DNA from: a virus
Lineage: Duplodnaviria > Heunggongvirae > Uroviricota > Caudoviricetes
Strand: one strand, 5' to 3'
Virus record (IMG/VR): IMGVR_UViG_2617270990_000009
DNA: 5,574 nucleotides
Shown: piece after piece, positions 1 to 5,574 of the stretch
Layout of the letters: every line of letters begins with the position of its first letter
Position numbering within the stretch: the first letter of the stretch is position 1
Made by a program: the position numbers and the translations under genes
Notes under the pieces: generated by a model
Told to the model about the DNA's origin: nothing
What the model saw: the letters and a program-made list of their open reading frames with translations, nothing else
The model's database searches: none

Positions 1-325
1 ATTTTTTCCAGAGGCGGTCGAACTCCGCCTTCGCAAAATAAGCGGAAGCCTGGCGAAGGATATCGTTACTGCGGCGCAGTTCACGATTTTCACGTTCCAG
101 CTCTTTCAGACGCTGACGTTCAGCGCTGGTGAGCCCACCATCACCGCCCCCGGTATCCCGCTCATGCTGGCGAACCCAGACACGCAGAGTCTCCGGCGTA
201 CAGCCAATCTTTGGGGCAATGGAACAAATTGCCGCCCACTGTGAGTCATATTCATCCTGACTTTCCAGAACCATACGAATCGCCCGCTGACGGACTTCGG
301 GGGAAAAACGAGTATTTTTAGTCAT
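1..325 (-). CDS. IS3-family transposase OrfA (HTH DNA-binding subunit), cut at window edge just at its stop codon
   Basis: ATG at 323..325 on the minus strand; translation identical to the 108-aa OrfA of the second copy ([22 protein letters not shown]...). RBS AGGTAAACAGG upstream. Confidence 0.85.
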
Positions 326-379
326 CCTGTTTACCTCTTTCTCAGGGAGTTTAGTCTCCAGGATTTCCGGGGCGGTTCA
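1..379 (-). mobile_element. IS3-family insertion sequence (IS629-like), partial copy A; left-end terminus at 379, remainder lies beyond window start
   Basis: Reverse complement of 1..379 is base-for-base identical to 4284..4662 of the second copy as far as I can read (position x pairs with 4663-x). Terminus reads TGAACCGCCCCGG, which I recall as the IS629/IS1203 end. Confidence 0.9.
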
Positions 380-792: not shown

Positions 793-948
793 TCACTCAC
801 CTGAGTTTCTTTCCAGCCAGCGACGGGCACCATTTTCGGTTTTAAACGTTTTGCTTTTGGTATACGTCATCGCGGTGAACGTGCCGTCCTGATTGGGGAA
901 CACGCCACATACCAGAGATTCGCTGTTGCCAAGATCGATAGTATCCAT
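793..948 (-). CDS. ydfA: YdfA-like small protein (51 aa, DUF1391-type), first gene of the dicB-type operon
   Basis: ATG at 946..948 (minus) preceded by GAGGT RBS; translation MDTIDLGNSESLVCGVFPNQDGTFTAMTYTKSKTFKTENGARRWLERNSGE. Sits downstream of dicA on the same strand, as in K-12 Qin. Confidence 0.6.
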   Translation of the reverse strand: MDTIDLGNSESLVCGVFPNQDGTFTAMTYTKSKTFKTENGARRWLERNSGE

Positions 949-1025
949 GCTGACCTCATTTCCCCTTAACGCCGGGGTGGCGGAACTGTTTGCTGAGAAC
1001 ACCGTGCGGTGTGTTGATGTAAACA

Positions 1026-1054
1026 AGATTAGTCATAACTAACATATTGGTCAA
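1026..1054 (-). promoter_or_regulatory. Putative sigma70 promoter for the ydfA operon (dicBp-like): -35 TTGACC, 17-bp spacer, -10 TAATCT (minus-strand reading)
   Basis: Reverse complement of 1049..1054 is TTGACC and of 1026..1031 is TAATCT, with a 17-nt spacer; an operator-like site overlaps the spacer and -10. Confidence 0.35.
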
Positions 1055-1080
1055 GTGATTTTGTATGTTATGGCTAACAT
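1029..1080. promoter_or_regulatory. Two operator-like imperfect palindromes with CTAACA half-sites (TTAGTCATAACTAACA at 1029..1044; TGTTATGGCTAACA at 1066..1079), candidate DicA/DicC binding sites
   Basis: They share the TGTTAG/CTAACA half-site with the palindrome in the dicA-dicC intergenic region. Confidence 0.4.
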
Positions 1081-1114
1081 AATTGATATAATAAAAGATA
1101 ACTCATTGATGATG

Positions 1115-1522
1115 TTATCTTTTATTTGTCCGCTGACGGGCTTTTAGTAATTCTTCAAAGAGTTTATTGAAATTTTTTACTCGAGCTCGCATTTCGGCGA
1201 GCTGGGTATCCTGTTCTGATTCTGGCAGTGCATTAAACAGCTCAAGGAGCTCTAGTTCTTTGGGGGCTAAGGCAACCGGCTTCTCAACAGGTGGTGTTGG
1301 TTGCTTGTCTTCATCGCCAAATAGAATCCATGTTGGTGAGCATTGCAATACTTTGCTGAGGGCAAAAAGGTTCTTCCCTGTAGGTTCACTATCATCCCGT
1401 TCCCATTGTGATACAGACACATGGGAGATTTTCAGGGCTTTAGCAAGAGACCTTTGGGTGTGTTTGAGGTTTTTCCGACGATACCTAATGCGTTCGCCGA
1501 TGGTTAAATTTTTTGTATCCAT
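1115..1522 (-). CDS. dicA: DicA, P22 C2-like HTH_XRE repressor of the cell-division-inhibition operon (prophage immunity repressor)
   Basis: 135-aa ORF MDTKNLTIGERIRYRRKNLKHTQRSLAKALKISHVSVSQWERDDSEPTGKNLFALSKVLQCSPTWILFGDE..., recognised as near-identical to E. coli K-12 DicA from memory. Divergent from a Cro-like gene. Confidence 0.9.
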   Translation of the reverse strand: MDTKNLTIGERIRYRRKNLKHTQRSLAKALKISHVSVSQWERDDSEPTGKNLFALSKVLQCSPTWILFGDEDKQPTPPVEKPVALAPKELELLELFNALPESEQDTQLAEMRARVKNFNKLFEELLKARQRTNKR

Positions 1523-1524
1523 AG

Positions 1525-1538
1525 TTAGCTAATGCTAA
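1525..1538. promoter_or_regulatory. Short inverted repeat TTAGC-TAAT-GCTAA next to the dicA start; possible operator half-site pair
   Basis: Seen directly in sequence; lies 3 bp upstream of the dicA ATG on the minus strand. Confidence 0.25.
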
Positions 1539-1544
1539 ATCGTA

Positions 1545-1573
1545 TTGACTATGTTTTTGTTAACATCTATTTT
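1545..1573 (+). promoter_or_regulatory. Putative dicC promoter: -35 TTGACT (1545..1550), 17-bp spacer, -10 TATTTT (1568..1573)
   Basis: Consensus-like hexamers at the correct spacing, about 30 nt upstream of the dicC ATG. Confidence 0.4.
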
Positions 1574-1590
1574 GTTAGCCATGACTAACA
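1573..1590. promoter_or_regulatory. 18-bp near-perfect palindrome TGTTAGCCATGACTAACA, candidate DicA/DicC operator overlapping the -10 and start region of the dicC promoter
   Basis: Reverse complement is TGTTAGTCATGGCTAACA, so 16 of 18 positions are symmetric. Related sites are at 1029..1044 and 1066..1079. Confidence 0.45.
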
Positions 1591-1605
1591 TCTAAGGTGT
1601 TTTAA

Positions 1606-1836
1606 ATGCTTAAAACTGACGCTCTTTTGTATTTCGGTTCAAAAACAAAACTTGCACAAGCAGCAGGTATTCGTTTGGCTTCGCTTTATAGCTGGAAAGG
1701 GGATTTAGTTCCCGAAGGTCGCGCGATGCGTCTACAGGAGGCATCTGGCGGGGAGCTTCAGTATGATCCCAAAGTTTATGACGAATATCGTAAGACGAAG
1801 CGGGCGGGGCGGTTGAACAATGAAAATCACTCCTGA
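1606..1836 (+). CDS. dicC: DicC, Cro-like small DNA-binding regulator
   Basis: 76-aa ORF MLKTDALLYFGSKTKLAQAAGIRLASLYSWKGDLVPEGRAMRLQEASGGELQYDPKVYDEYRKTKRAGRLNNENHS matching K-12 DicC from memory; AAGGTG RBS 6 nt upstream; divergent from dicA. Confidence 0.88.
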   Translation: MLKTDALLYFGSKTKLAQAAGIRLASLYSWKGDLVPEGRAMRLQEASGGELQYDPKVYDEYRKTKRAGRLNNENHS

Positions 1837-3756: not shown

Positions 3757-3851
3757 CCTATTTAAACATTCCTTAAACTCAGAGTAGACTGGGTTAACAA
3801 TCTGTTTCAATTGCAAATTGACAATCTATAGCCAGCGCGACGGGAGTGTTC

Positions 3852-4283: not shown

Positions 4284-4337
4284 TGAACCGCCCCGGAAAT
4301 CCTGGAGACTAAACTCCCTGAGAAAGAGGTAAACAGG

Positions 4338-4664
4338 ATGACTAAAAATACTCGTTTTTCCCCCGAAGTCCGTCAGCGGGCGATTCGTATGGTTCTGGAA
4401 AGTCAGGATGAATATGACTCACAGTGGGCGGCAATTTGTTCCATTGCCCCAAAGATTGGCTGTACGCCGGAGACTCTGCGTGTCTGGGTTCGCCAGCATG
4501 AGCGGGATACCGGGGGCGGTGATGGTGGGCTCACCAGCGCTGAACGTCAGCGTCTGAAAGAGCTGGAACGTGAAAATCGTGAACTGCGCCGCAGTAACGA
4601 TATCCTTCGCCAGGCTTCCGCTTATTTTGCGAAGGCGGAGTTCGACCGCCTCTGGAAAAAATGA
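4338..4664 (+). CDS. IS3-family transposase OrfA (HTH subunit)
   Basis: 108-aa [33 protein letters not shown]... with leucine-zipper-like C-terminus; GAGG RBS upstream. Confidence 0.9.
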
Positions 4665-5551
4665 TGCCACTGCTGGATAAGCTGCGTGAGCAGTACGGGG
4701 TCGGACCGGTATGCAGCGAACTGCATATTGCCCCGTCAACGTATTACCATTGTCAGCAACAGCGACATCATCCGGATAAACGCAGTGCCCGTGCGCAGCA
4801 CGACGACTGGCTGAAGAGAGAGATACAGCGCGTATACGATGAAAATCATCAGGTGTACGGTGTGCGTAAAGTCTGGCGTCAGTTGTTACGGGAAGGAATC
4901 AGGGTGGCCAGATGTACAGTGGCACGTCTCATGGCGGTTATGGGACTTGCCGGTGTTCTCCGGGGTAAAAAGGTCCGTACGACCATCAGCCGGAAAGCCG
5001 TTGCCGCAGGCGACCGCGTAAACCGTCAGTTCGTGGCAGAACGACCTGACCAGCTGTGGGTGGCTGATTTTACTTACGTCAGCACATGGCAGGGCTTCGT
5101 CTATGTGGCGTTTATCATTGATGTGTTTGCCGGATACATCGTGGGGTGGCGGGTCTCATCGTCTATGGAAACGACATTCGTGCTGGATGCGCTGGAGCAG
5201 GCGTTGTGGGCCCGTCGTCCGTCTGGCACCATCCATCACAGCGATAAAGGCTCTCAGTATGTGTCACTGGCCTATACGGAGCGACTAAAAGAAGCCGGAT
5301 TACTGGCATCAACAGGGAGTACAGGCGACTCGTATGACAACGCGATGGCTGAGAGCATCAATGGTCTTTACAAAGCGGAGGTAATACACCGTAAGAGCTG
5401 GAAAAACCGTGCAGAAGTGGAACTGGCCACACTAACGTGGGTGGACTGGTATAACAATCGACGATTGCTGGGAAGGCTGGGCCATACTCCTCCGGCAGAA
5501 GCAGAAAAAGCTTATTATGCTTCCATCGGAAACGATGATCTGGCAGCCTGA
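4661..5551 (+). CDS. IS3-family transposase OrfB (DDE catalytic domain), expressed as an OrfAB fusion by -1 frameshifting
   Basis: 296-aa ORF in -1 frame relative to orfA, overlapping it by 4 nt (ATGA); DDE-type motifs ([24 protein letters not shown]). Confidence 0.9.
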
Positions 5552-5574
5552 GTTCACAGATAAAACACTCTCCA

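What the first reader, a model, noticed from the sequence alone, without database searches (positions are those of the whole stretch)
949..1605. DicA-type operator palindromes at both the dicC promoter and the downstream ydfA-operon promoter
Related imperfect palindromes with CTAACA half-sites occur at 1573..1590 (overlapping the putative dicC -10 region) and at 1029..1044 and 1066..1079 (overlapping or flanking the putative ydfA-operon promoter downstream of dicA). This fits one repressor controlling both the Cro-like gene and the cell-division-inhibitor operon. It gives a testable operator consensus of roughly TTAG(C/T)CAT(G/A)ACTAACA.
Basis: partly seen in the sequence, partly recalled or inferred. 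Interest (0 to 1): 0.4.

Follow-up and report, generated by a model that had tools for sequence, protein, structure and literature searches.

The report
Known DicA/DicC prophage operator sites
These short palindromes are the repressor-binding sites of the Qin-type prophage switch in E. coli, sitting on the two promoters either side of the repressor gene dicA; they are real and conserved, but this arrangement has been described since 1988.

Summary
The window is a Qin-type E. coli prophage immunity region: ydfA <- dicBp <- dicA | dicC ->, bracketed by two IS3-family insertion sequences. All three reported sites exist and are far from chance. TGTTAGYYATRR occurs 4 times against 0.01 expected, and every CTAACA in the 5.6 kb lies in these sites.

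The 1573-1590 site is the published DicA operator Oc, annotated at -8..+12 of dicCp. A CTAACA->CTCACA change abolishes DicA binding in vivo. The two other sites flank the -35 of the promoter downstream of dicA (dicBp). The proximal one, 1027-1044, supplies the -10.

The third site is better read as an 18-mer at 1062-1079.

In 57 close haplotypes the half-sites are invariant. In about 40 repressor clusters the half-sites change together at both promoters (TGTTAG, CCTTAG and TTGAG classes, among others). A better consensus is TGTTAG-YYAT-RR-CTAACA.

Base-pair mapping of DicA at dicBp does not appear in the literature I could read.

Side observations:
- The four central operator positions are hypervariable, by transitions only.
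- The dicB-operon leader carries conserved, apparently covarying hairpins.

The parts
1573..1590 (.). Oc: the primary DicA operator on the dicC promoter. Sequence TGTTAG CCATGA CTAACA. The published 20-mer register is 1572-1591, which is -8..+12 of dicCp.
   Evidence: not chance. (Yun 2012: the K-12 Oc 20-mer binds DicA in vivo, and an A->C change in CTAACA abolishes binding). (annotated at -8..+12). (half-sites invariant in 57 haplotypes).
1545..1573 (+). dicC promoter: -35 TTGACT (1545-1550), 17-bp spacer, -10 TATTTT (1568-1573). The inferred transcription start is about 1580.
   Evidence: the only promoter-like site found in 850-1700. The start follows from the -8..+12 annotation of Oc. The hexamers are conserved in distant relatives.
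1551..1566 (.). Om-like palindrome ATGTTTTTGTTAACAT inside the dicCp spacer. The TGTT/AACA arms are 2 bp closer together than in Oc.
   Evidence: family D1. Invariant in 57 haplotypes. Yun 2012 reports that Om did not bind DicA in vivo, data not shown. Assigning this sequence to 'Om' is my inference.
1523..1540 (.). Oa-like site abutting the dicA start codon. Plus strand AGTTAG CTAATG CTAAAT; minus strand ATTTAG CATTAG CTAACT.
   Evidence: 3 mismatches to the half-site pattern. Invariant apart from one position. An equivalent (A/T)TTAG-N6-CTAA(C/T) site abuts the repressor ATG in distant relatives of both the TGTTAG and CCTTAG classes. Yun 2012: no DicA binding in vivo. Its TTAG..CTAA core fits the DicC ChIP motif.
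1027..1044 (-). dicBp proximal operator ('OL1'). Minus strand TGTTAG TTATGA CTAATC, lying between the -35 and the -10. Its right half-site CTAAT overlaps the -10.
   Evidence: The plus-strand 16-mer 1029-1044 is identical to the core of the validated K-12 Oc. TGTTAG and CTAAT are invariant in 57 haplotypes. The same geometry occurs in other specificity classes.
1026..1054 (-). Inferred dicB-operon promoter (dicBp): -35 TTGACC (1049-1054), 17-bp spacer, -10 TAATCT (1026-1031).
   Evidence: Read directly from the sequence. TTGACC is invariant and TAATCT nearly so. TTGNCN-17/18-TAANNT recurs at the same place in about 40 repressor clusters. The consensus scan did not call it because the -10 matches only 3 of 6. 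The literature places dicBp between dicA and ydfA. No transcription start data were found.
1062..1079 (-). dicBp distal operator ('OL2'), 7 bp upstream of the -35. Minus strand TGTTAG CCATAA CATACA.
   Evidence: (3 mismatches to Oc, 0.00 expected). TGTTAG and the terminal ACA are conserved; the right half is CA(T/A)ACA in all close relatives.
1090..1126 (-). dicA terminator-like hairpin. It has a 13-bp A/U-rich stem followed by UUUUAUUAU, overlaps the dicA stop codon, and separates dicA from dicBp.
   Evidence: I5, 13 nt, 100% complementary. (-13.8 kcal/mol, z = -5.8, 0 of 200 shuffles as stable). The 99_0849-type variant keeps the stem with changed bases.
1115..1522 (-). dicA: a 135-aa repressor with an HTH_3 domain and no S24 peptidase domain.
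1606..1836 (+). dicC: a 76-aa Cro-like regulator (P22_Cro).
793..948 (-). ydfA (DUF1391), the first gene of the dicB operon.
949..1025 (-). dicB-operon leader with two small hairpins (999-1012 and 962-977). It is conserved across phages whose repressors have different specificities.
   Evidence: No Rfam match.

Best explanation
These are the operators of a lambdoid-type bistable immunity switch.

The binding site. A DicA dimer recognises 18-bp pseudo-palindromes, TGTTAG-YYATRR-CTAACA. DicA has an HTH_3 domain and its N-terminal half is 59% identical to that of P22 C2.

At the dicC promoter. The best site, Oc, spans about -8 to +12, so bound DicA blocks RNA polymerase. According to Yun 2012 it also activates dicA.

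At the dicB-operon promoter, downstream of dicA. Two sites bracket the -35. The proximal site fills the spacer, and its right half-site CTAAT doubles as the -10 (TAATCT). Occupancy therefore excludes polymerase and keeps ydfA-dicF-dicB silent.

The second protein. The Cro-like DicC recognises the same TTAG/CTAA cores on both sides of dicA and shuts off dicA when DicA is lost.

Shown in the literature (in K-12, not in this strain):
- DicA binds Oc.
- dicBp is repressed in a DicA-dependent way.
- DicC ChIP signal lies on both sides of dicA.

Shown here:
- The sites exist, are non-random and are conserved.
- Their specificity co-varies at the two promoters.

Inferred:
- DicA contacts the two dicBp sites directly.
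- The -35/-10 assignment for dicBp.
- Steric exclusion as the mechanism of repression.
For: Non-randomness.

Identity with the published Oc, and mutational evidence for CTAACA. Oc annotated at -8..+12. Plasmid titration of DicA by this site.

dicBp regulation: deleting dicA raises an ectopic dicBp-lacZ fusion 22-fold, whereas deleting dicC has no effect. The same paper states that both regions carry lambda-like operators. DicC ChIP-seq gives one site on either side of dicA and a TT(A/C/T)G..C(G/A/T)AA motif.

Phylogenetic footprint in 57 haplotypes: positions 1-6 of all three sites and most of positions 13-18 show 0 changes, against a background mean of 0.65-0.9 changes per column.

Co-variation across about 40 repressor clusters. 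Each class carries the same half-sites at both promoters:
- TGTTAG..CTAACA
- CCTTAG..CTAAGG
- TTGAG-N4-CTCAA (mEp460)
- CTAAC-N4-GTTAG
- CTTAC-N6-GCAAG
Each locus's own upstream and downstream operator zones match better than permuted pairings in 10000 of 10000 permutations.

Protein correlate: helix-2 'TQR' goes with the TG outer bases and 'SQA/SQS' with CC, while helix 3 is unchanged.

Protein families. P22 C2 N-terminal similarity of 58.7%.
Against: No footprint or EMSA of DicA on the dicBp sites exists in the literature I could read. RegulonDB, as quoted, lists the DicA site for dicB as low-evidence with unknown location.

Both dicBp sites have a degenerate right half-site (CTAATC, CATACA).

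The related sites Om and Oa reportedly failed to bind DicA in vivo, so resemblance alone does not guarantee binding.

The dicBp -10 matches the consensus at only 3 of 6 positions and was not called by the promoter scan. No transcription start data were found.

The experiments were done in K-12. This window's Oc differs from the K-12 Oc at 3 of 20 positions: two central and one flanking.

The co-variation test uses related sequences, so the permutation count is not a strict probability.
Confidence: 0.85

Rival explanations
1. The two dicBp sites are mainly targets of the Cro-like DicC, or of another factor such as YjdC. DicA would then repress dicBp indirectly or through some other sequence.
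For: DicC ChIP-seq shows binding on both sides of dicA, and its motif is the TTAG/CTAA core. Om and Oa resemble the operator yet did not bind DicA in vivo. Each dicBp site has only one perfect half-site. YjdC binds the dic locus.
Against: Deleting dicA derepresses an ectopic dicBp-lacZ fusion 22-fold, while deleting dicC has no effect. In a dicA deletion dicC is itself derepressed, yet dicBp goes up. The window's 1029-1044 16-mer is identical to the core of the K-12 Oc that is sufficient for DicA-dependent repression. The outer TG of TGTTAG, which tracks the DicA helix-2 residue, is conserved at both dicBp sites.
Confidence: 0.07
2. Only the proximal site is a conventional operator. The distal site, and possibly Oc about 500 bp away, would serve mainly for DicA oligomerisation and DNA looping, as in lambda OL-OR looping, rather than for simple independent occlusion.
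For: Two sites always accompany the promoter in every specificity class. DicA has a conserved C-terminal domain of unknown role. Oc and the dicBp sites lie only about 500 bp apart.
Against: The OL1-OL2 centre-to-centre distance is 34-36 bp in different relatives. That is neither constant nor an integral number of helical turns. No data bear on DicA oligomerisation. This variant is compatible with the main explanation rather than exclusive of it.
Confidence: 0.06
3. The palindromes are chance or relic repeats in AT-rich intergenic DNA and have no regulatory function.
For: CTAACA alone is only mildly enriched: 4 hits against 2.1 expected, and 33 of 200 shuffles reach 4. TGTTAG-N6-CTAACA with up to 3 mismatches has 1.8 expected hits.
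Against: The 12-mer TGTTAGYYATRR gives 4 hits against 0.01 expected. The 18-mer gives 0.00 expected. Half-sites stay invariant amid hypervariable neighbours in 57 haplotypes. Specificity co-varies across classes. Oc has direct genetic evidence.
Confidence: 0.02

Closest known systems
Qin cryptic prophage dicA-dicC-dicBp immunity region of E. coli K-12 (Bejar et al. 1986/1988; Yun et al. 2012; Ragunathan et al. 2023)
   Same: Gene order and orientation are the same. The region is 96% identical in DNA. Oc sits at the same place with identical half-sites. The dicBp -35 is identical, the -10 is the same, and both flanking sites are present.
   Different: The central operator bases differ: Oc is CCATGA here on the plus strand against TTATGA in K-12. 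DicA differs at about 3 residues. Here the operon is cut by an IS3-family element at 379-380, so dicF and dicB are not in the window.
Phage P22 immC region (C2 repressor / Cro, with OR and OL operators)
   Same: Divergent repressor and cro genes. A second operator set sits on the leftward promoter. The DicA N-terminal domain is 58.7% identical to that of C2, and DicC hits the Pfam P22_Cro family. The operators are 18 bp, with a 7+4+7 layout and non-contacted central bases (the P22 operator layout is from my own knowledge).
   Different: Half-site sequence differs: TGTTAG here against ATTTAAG in P22 (the latter from my own knowledge). DicA lacks the C-terminal S24 autocleavage domain. It is controlled by the Rem antirepressor, by temperature and by urea rather than by RecA. 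Only two clear sites are present at the leftward promoter.
Phage lambda OR/OL with CI and Cro
   Same: A bistable switch in which repressor and Cro share operators at two promoters. The repressor bound next to its own promoter activates it.
   Different: There is no sequence relationship between the operators. The tripartite, cooperatively bound operator sets have not been demonstrated here. There is no RecA-mediated cleavage.
Active lambdoid phages with DicA/DicC-type immunity (PhiR42_1, mEp460, PPompW, Cronobacter phiES15)
   Same: The module is identical: cro-like gene, operator, 135-aa repressor, terminator, two operators around the -35, a conserved leader, then ydfA-like genes.
   Different: Each carries its own half-site specificity. 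PhiR42_1 is the exception: it has the same immunity as Qin.

Membership tests
Qin-type DicA/DicC immunity region | DicA orthologue (135 aa, HTH_3) transcribed divergently from a Cro-like DicC | tested here: met
   The region 900-1650 is 96.1% identical in DNA to K-12 derivatives that are annotated dicA, dicC and ydfA.
Qin-type DicA/DicC immunity region | Operator Oc: a 20-nt inverted repeat TTGTTAG..CTAACAA overlapping the dicC transcription start (-8..+12) | tested here: met
   1572-1591 matches the published K-12 Oc at 17 of 20 positions, and both half-sites are identical.
Qin-type DicA/DicC immunity region | Related operator sequences at the promoter between dicA and ydfA (dicBp) | tested here: met
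   Sites at 1027-1044 and 1062-1079 flank the -35 TTGACC. They are conserved in 57 haplotypes. The literature mentions operators at this promoter.
Qin-type DicA/DicC immunity region | Physical binding of DicA to each site | not testable with these tools
   Published only for Oc in K-12, by an in vivo rpsL assay and a crude-extract EMSA. No base-pair mapping at dicBp was found.
Qin-type DicA/DicC immunity region | Downstream operon encoding the division inhibitors dicF and dicB | tested here: inconclusive
   ydfA is present, but an IS3-family element interrupts the operon at about 379-380, so dicF and dicB lie outside the window. Strain 600029, which matches 900-1650 at 100%, has dicB downstream.
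Canonical lambdoid CI/Cro switch (lambda, P22) | Three operators at each of the two promoters | tested here: inconclusive
   On the dicC side there are Oc plus the Om-like and Oa-like sequences, which reportedly do not bind DicA in vivo. On the dicBp side I find only two convincing sites, although the literature speaks of three.
Canonical lambdoid CI/Cro switch (lambda, P22) | Repressor with a C-terminal S24/LexA-type autocleavage domain, induced through RecA | tested here: not met
   Pfam finds only HTH families in the 135-aa protein. The literature reports no Ala-Gly cleavage site, no induction by mitomycin C, and control by the Rem antirepressor.
Canonical lambdoid CI/Cro switch (lambda, P22) | Repressor and Cro share the same operators | not testable with these tools
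   Supported indirectly. DicA binds Oc. DicC ChIP peaks lie on both sides of dicA and its motif is the same TTAG/CTAA core.

The most novel reading that the evidence does not exclude
The four central positions of every DicA operator (7, 8, 11 and 12; YYATRR) may be an evolutionary tuning knob. These are probably non-contacted positions.

Among 57 near-identical Qin-type prophages all 12 such positions are polymorphic, and by transitions only. They show about 6 inferred changes per site, against 0.4-1.1 at third codon positions of dicA and dicC. Prophages with identical DicA proteins carry 5-7 different centre combinations. The half-sites and the central AT never change.

This could reflect recurrent selection on operator affinity through indirect readout, setting how easily each prophage's division-inhibitor or lytic operon is derepressed, rather than neutral drift.
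Probability: 0.3. Interest if true: 0.45.

Novelty: already known. Interest (0 to 1): 0.15.

Why it matters
[quoted passage not shown] It confirms textbook-style lambdoid logic and does not change it.

Its practical value is modest:
- It gives base-pair coordinates and an 18-bp consensus for the dicBp operators. Databases still list these as unmapped.
- It shows that the proximal operator doubles as the -10.
- It provides a comparative set of at least five co-varying operator/repressor specificity classes, which could guide footprinting or engineering of orthogonal repressors.

The hypervariable operator centres and the conserved leader hairpins are the only parts that might lead somewhere new.

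Tried and rejected
- The original Bejar 1986 and Cam 1988 NAR papers are not held. I did not try to fetch Bejar 1988 (MGG), which carries no PMC id in the reference list. I could not compare my dicBp sites with their drawn operators, so 'Om' and 'Oa' are assigned here by inference.
- The sigma-70 scan did not call dicBp, because its -10 TAATCT matches only 3 of 6. The promoter is assigned from conservation and literature position only.
- The genome-contig scan gave only 6 loci. Four viral-contig scans, each with a differently ordered alignment, were needed to reach divergent relatives.
- Rfam found nothing in 700-1900 at E <= 1.
- RNAalifold on a MAFFT alignment of 23 leaders predicted no pairs, because the hairpins were misaligned. 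Single-sequence folds were used instead, which is descriptive only.
- The whole leader is not unusually stable (z = +0.99).
- I looked for a third dicBp operator and found only weak candidates (about 7 of 12 half-site matches), so I do not claim one.
- I considered Dcm/Vsr very-short-patch repair as the cause of the transition hot spots and rejected it: the centre CCATGG is not CCWGG.
- I considered gene conversion among the three operators and judged it unlikely, since only 6 bp of flanking identity are available.
- A search for a nutL annotation under the leader in phage records found none.

Full report
**What the window is**

The 5574-bp window is a Qin-type lambdoid prophage immunity region of E. 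coli. The stretch 900-1650 is 100% identical to strain 600029 and 96% identical to K-12 derivatives, where it is annotated ydfA, dicA and dicC.

The genes are:
- ydfA, 793-948 minus strand, DUF1391.
- dicA, 1115-1522 minus strand, 135 aa, HTH_3.
- dicC, 1606-1836 plus strand, P22_Cro.
- A YdaT-family gene, a phage O-like gene and a DUF977 gene follow.

Two inverted copies of an IS3-family element bracket the region, at 1-379 and from 4284 to the end of the window. I recognise the element as IS629-like from memory.

**The observation**

- Every CTAACA in the window lies in them.
- The Oc 18-mer with up to 3 mismatches recovers 1062-1079, with 0.00 matches expected by chance.
- The half-site pattern TGTTAG-N6-CTAACA with up to 3 mismatches recovers 1027-1044, 1062-1079, 1523-1540 and 1573-1590.
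- TGTTAGYYATRR occurs four times against 0.01 expected.

The short palindrome drawn at 1066-1079 is an accident of this window's central bases. The conserved unit is the 18-mer 1062-1079.

**Anatomy, read in the direction of dicA (minus strand)**

1. dicC start.
2. Oc, 1573-1590: TGTTAG-N6-CTAACA.
3. dicCp -10 (1568-1573), touching Oc.
4. An Om-like palindrome in the promoter spacer (1551-1566).
5. dicCp -35 (1545-1550).
6. An Oa-like site abutting the dicA ATG (1523-1540).
7. dicA.
8. A strong A/U-rich hairpin with a U-tract across the dicA stop codon (1090-1126; z = -5.8).
9. The distal operator, 1062-1079: TGTTAG CCATAA CATACA.
10. -35 TTGACC (1049-1054).
11. The proximal operator, 1027-1044: TGTTAG TTATGA CTAATC. 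Its right half provides the -10, TAATCT (1026-1031).
12. A 77-nt leader.
13. ydfA.

The dicBp hexamers are my inference. The consensus scan missed them because the -10 matches only 3 of 6, and I found no published start site.

**What is already published**

- Yun et al. 2012 (PMC3441716). The 20-nt K-12 Oc, TTGTTAGTCATAACTAACAA, is sufficient for DicA-dependent repression in vivo. An A->C change in CTAACA abolishes it. The site titrates DicA when present on multicopy plasmids. Om and Oa did not bind DicA (data not shown in that paper).
- A 2026 Reg-Seq preprint annotates the DicA site at -8..+12 of dicCp and again sees titration. That places the start near 1580 here and fits the -10 I assigned.
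- Ragunathan et al. 2023 (PMC10448788). The paper says both the dicA-dicC and the dicA-dicBp regions contain three lambda-like operators, citing Bejar 1988. A dicA deletion raises an ectopic dicBp-lacZ fusion 22-fold, while a dicC deletion does not. DicA is relieved by the Rem antirepressor, by urea and by heat, not by RecA.
- A 2024 preprint (PMC11430063) reports DicC ChIP-seq with one site on either side of dicA and a TT(A/C/T)G...C(G/A/T)AA motif.
- Against this, the 2020 Reg-Seq paper notes that the DicA site for dicB is low-evidence with unknown location.

Base-pair mapping at dicBp appears to be missing from what I could read. The Bejar 1986 and Cam 1988 NAR papers are not held, and I did not try to fetch Bejar 1988 (MGG).

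**Comparative test: close relatives**

I collected about 320 loci encoding DicA relatives from IMG/VR, GenBank phages and GTDB genomes.

Among 57 distinct haplotypes with DicA at 85% identity or more:
- TGTTAG is invariant in Oc and in the proximal dicBp site, and has a single change (position 6) in the distal site.
- CTAACA, CTAAT and the terminal ACA of the distal site are essentially invariant.
- The flanking bases and the operator centres vary freely.

This is a clear phylogenetic footprint.

**Comparative test: distant relatives**

Across about 40 repressor clusters (45-80% identity to DicA) the architecture is constant, including the two sites bracketing a TTGNCN -35 and a TAANNT -10 formed by the proximal site. 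The half-sites change in step at both promoters:
- TGTTAG..CTAACA
- CCTTAG..CTAAGG (PPompW type)
- TTGAG-N4-CTCAA (mEp460)
- CTAAC-N4-GTTAG (phiES15 type)
- CTTAC-N6-GCAAG, an identical 16-mer at both promoters in L184

Each locus's own upstream and downstream operator zones match better than shuffled pairings in 10000 of 10000 permutations. The sequences are related, so this count is not a strict probability.

The TG-versus-CC outer bases track a helix-2 residue: TQR against SQA/SQS. Helix 3 is unchanged.

**Mechanism**

The best-supported reading (confidence 0.85) is a lambdoid bistable switch.
- DicA dimers at Oc occlude dicCp and, per Yun 2012, activate dicA.
- DicA at the two dicBp sites occludes the -35/-10 and silences ydfA-dicF-dicB.
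- DicC uses the same TTAG/CTAA cores to shut off dicA.

Direct DicA contact at dicBp, the promoter hexamers and steric exclusion are inferred, not shown.

Rivals are a DicC-only role for the dicBp sites, a looping or oligomerisation role for the distal site, and chance. They are scored low for the reasons given in their entries.

**Membership**

The locus meets every testable feature of the Qin DicA/DicC region.

It works like the lambda and P22 switches but fails one defining feature of the canonical CI family: there is no S24 autocleavage domain. The three-operator feature is unproven here.

**Novelty and interest**

Already known; interest is low (0.15).

**Side observations**

(a) Hypervariable operator centres. 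All 12 central positions (7, 8, 11 and 12 of the three operators) are polymorphic, and by transitions only.
- They show a mean of 6.1 parsimony changes per site on a neighbour-joining tree.
- The comparison values are 0.43 for third codon positions of dicA and 1.08 for dicC (Mann-Whitney p = 2e-10).
- There are 35 distinct centre combinations among 53 haplotypes.
- Prophages with identical DicA proteins carry 5-7 different combinations.
- Recombination inflates parsimony counts. Even so, 8-9 of the 16 possible YY..RR combinations at each 6-bp centre cannot arise from recombination alone.
- This may reflect tuning of affinity through non-contacted bases, as is known for the 434 and P22 operators (my own knowledge).

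(b) Conserved leader. The dicB-operon leader is shared by phages with different immunities.
- It carries two hairpins at fixed positions.
- Their stems differ by apparently compensatory changes: CCCC/GGGG, GCCC/GGGC, GUCU/AGAC, AUCU/AGAU, GCCG/CGGC.
- Some relatives have GAAAG-type loops that recall boxB.
- It has no Rfam family.

(c) The Oa-like site abutting the repressor start codon keeps a TTAG..CTAA core even in the CCTTAG class. That fits a DicC/Cro site.

Noticed in passing
window 1033-1038, 1068-1073, 1579-1584 (operator centres); loci L014-L093 and others: Positions 7, 8, 11 and 12 of all three operators (YYATRR) are hypervariable among near-identical Qin-type prophages. Changes are transitions only, about 6 inferred changes per site against 0.4-1.1 at third codon positions. 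The half-sites and the central AT are invariant. Identical DicA proteins occur with 5-7 different centre combinations.
   Followed up: partly
window 949-1025 minus strand (hairpins 999-1012 and 962-977); leaders of L005-L330: The leader between dicBp and ydfA is conserved across phages whose repressors have different operator specificities. It has the form CATCAAC-hairpin-...GTTCYG..-hairpin. The second hairpin sits at a fixed position with at least 8 different, mutually complementary stem sequences, and some relatives have GAAAG-type loops. There is no Rfam match. It may be a nut/put-like antitermination element or a translational element.
   Followed up: partly
window 1090-1126 minus strand: A perfect 13-bp A/U-rich hairpin followed by UUUUAUUAU overlaps the dicA stop codon (z = -5.8). 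It is probably the dicA terminator, insulating dicBp from read-through. A variant with changed stem bases keeps the pairing in 99_0849-type prophages.
   Followed up: partly
window 1523-1540 (Oa-like) and 1551-1566 (Om-like): Both sequences are essentially invariant in 57 haplotypes, although DicA reportedly does not bind them in vivo. An Oa-like (A/T)TTAG-N6-CTAA(C/T) site abuts the repressor ATG even in the CCTTAG specificity class. It may be a DicC/Cro site or part of the unmapped dicA promoter. dicA has no obvious Shine-Dalgarno sequence, so its mRNA may be leaderless.
   Followed up: partly
DicA residues 22-24 (TQR); window about 1451-1459 minus strand; clusters: Helix-2 'TQR' co-occurs with TGTTAG..CTAACA operators in 13 clusters. 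'SQA/SQS' co-occurs with CCTTAG..CTAAGG in 11 clusters. The recognition helix (S/A)HV(S/T)(V/I)SQWE is unchanged, which suggests that Arg24 reads the outer TG.
   Followed up: partly
window 1-379 (minus) and 4284-5574 (plus): Two inverted copies of an IS3-family element (OrfA 4338-4664, OrfB 4661-5551; IS629-like from memory) bracket the region. The left copy truncates the second gene of the dicB operon, so ORF 351-833 is a chimera. The right copy appears to truncate the AAA-ATPase gene that starts at 3846. In this genome the operators may therefore control an operon cut off from dicF and dicB.
   Followed up: no
L334 (phage mEp460) 1900-2500; L004 (PhiR42_1): Active, plaque-forming lambdoid phages carry the same DicA/DicC module with no N-like gene between the repressor and the ydfA/dicB genes. 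PhiR42_1 has the same immunity as Qin, with identical Oc and dicBp sites. Qin-carrying E. coli should therefore be immune to it.
   Followed up: no
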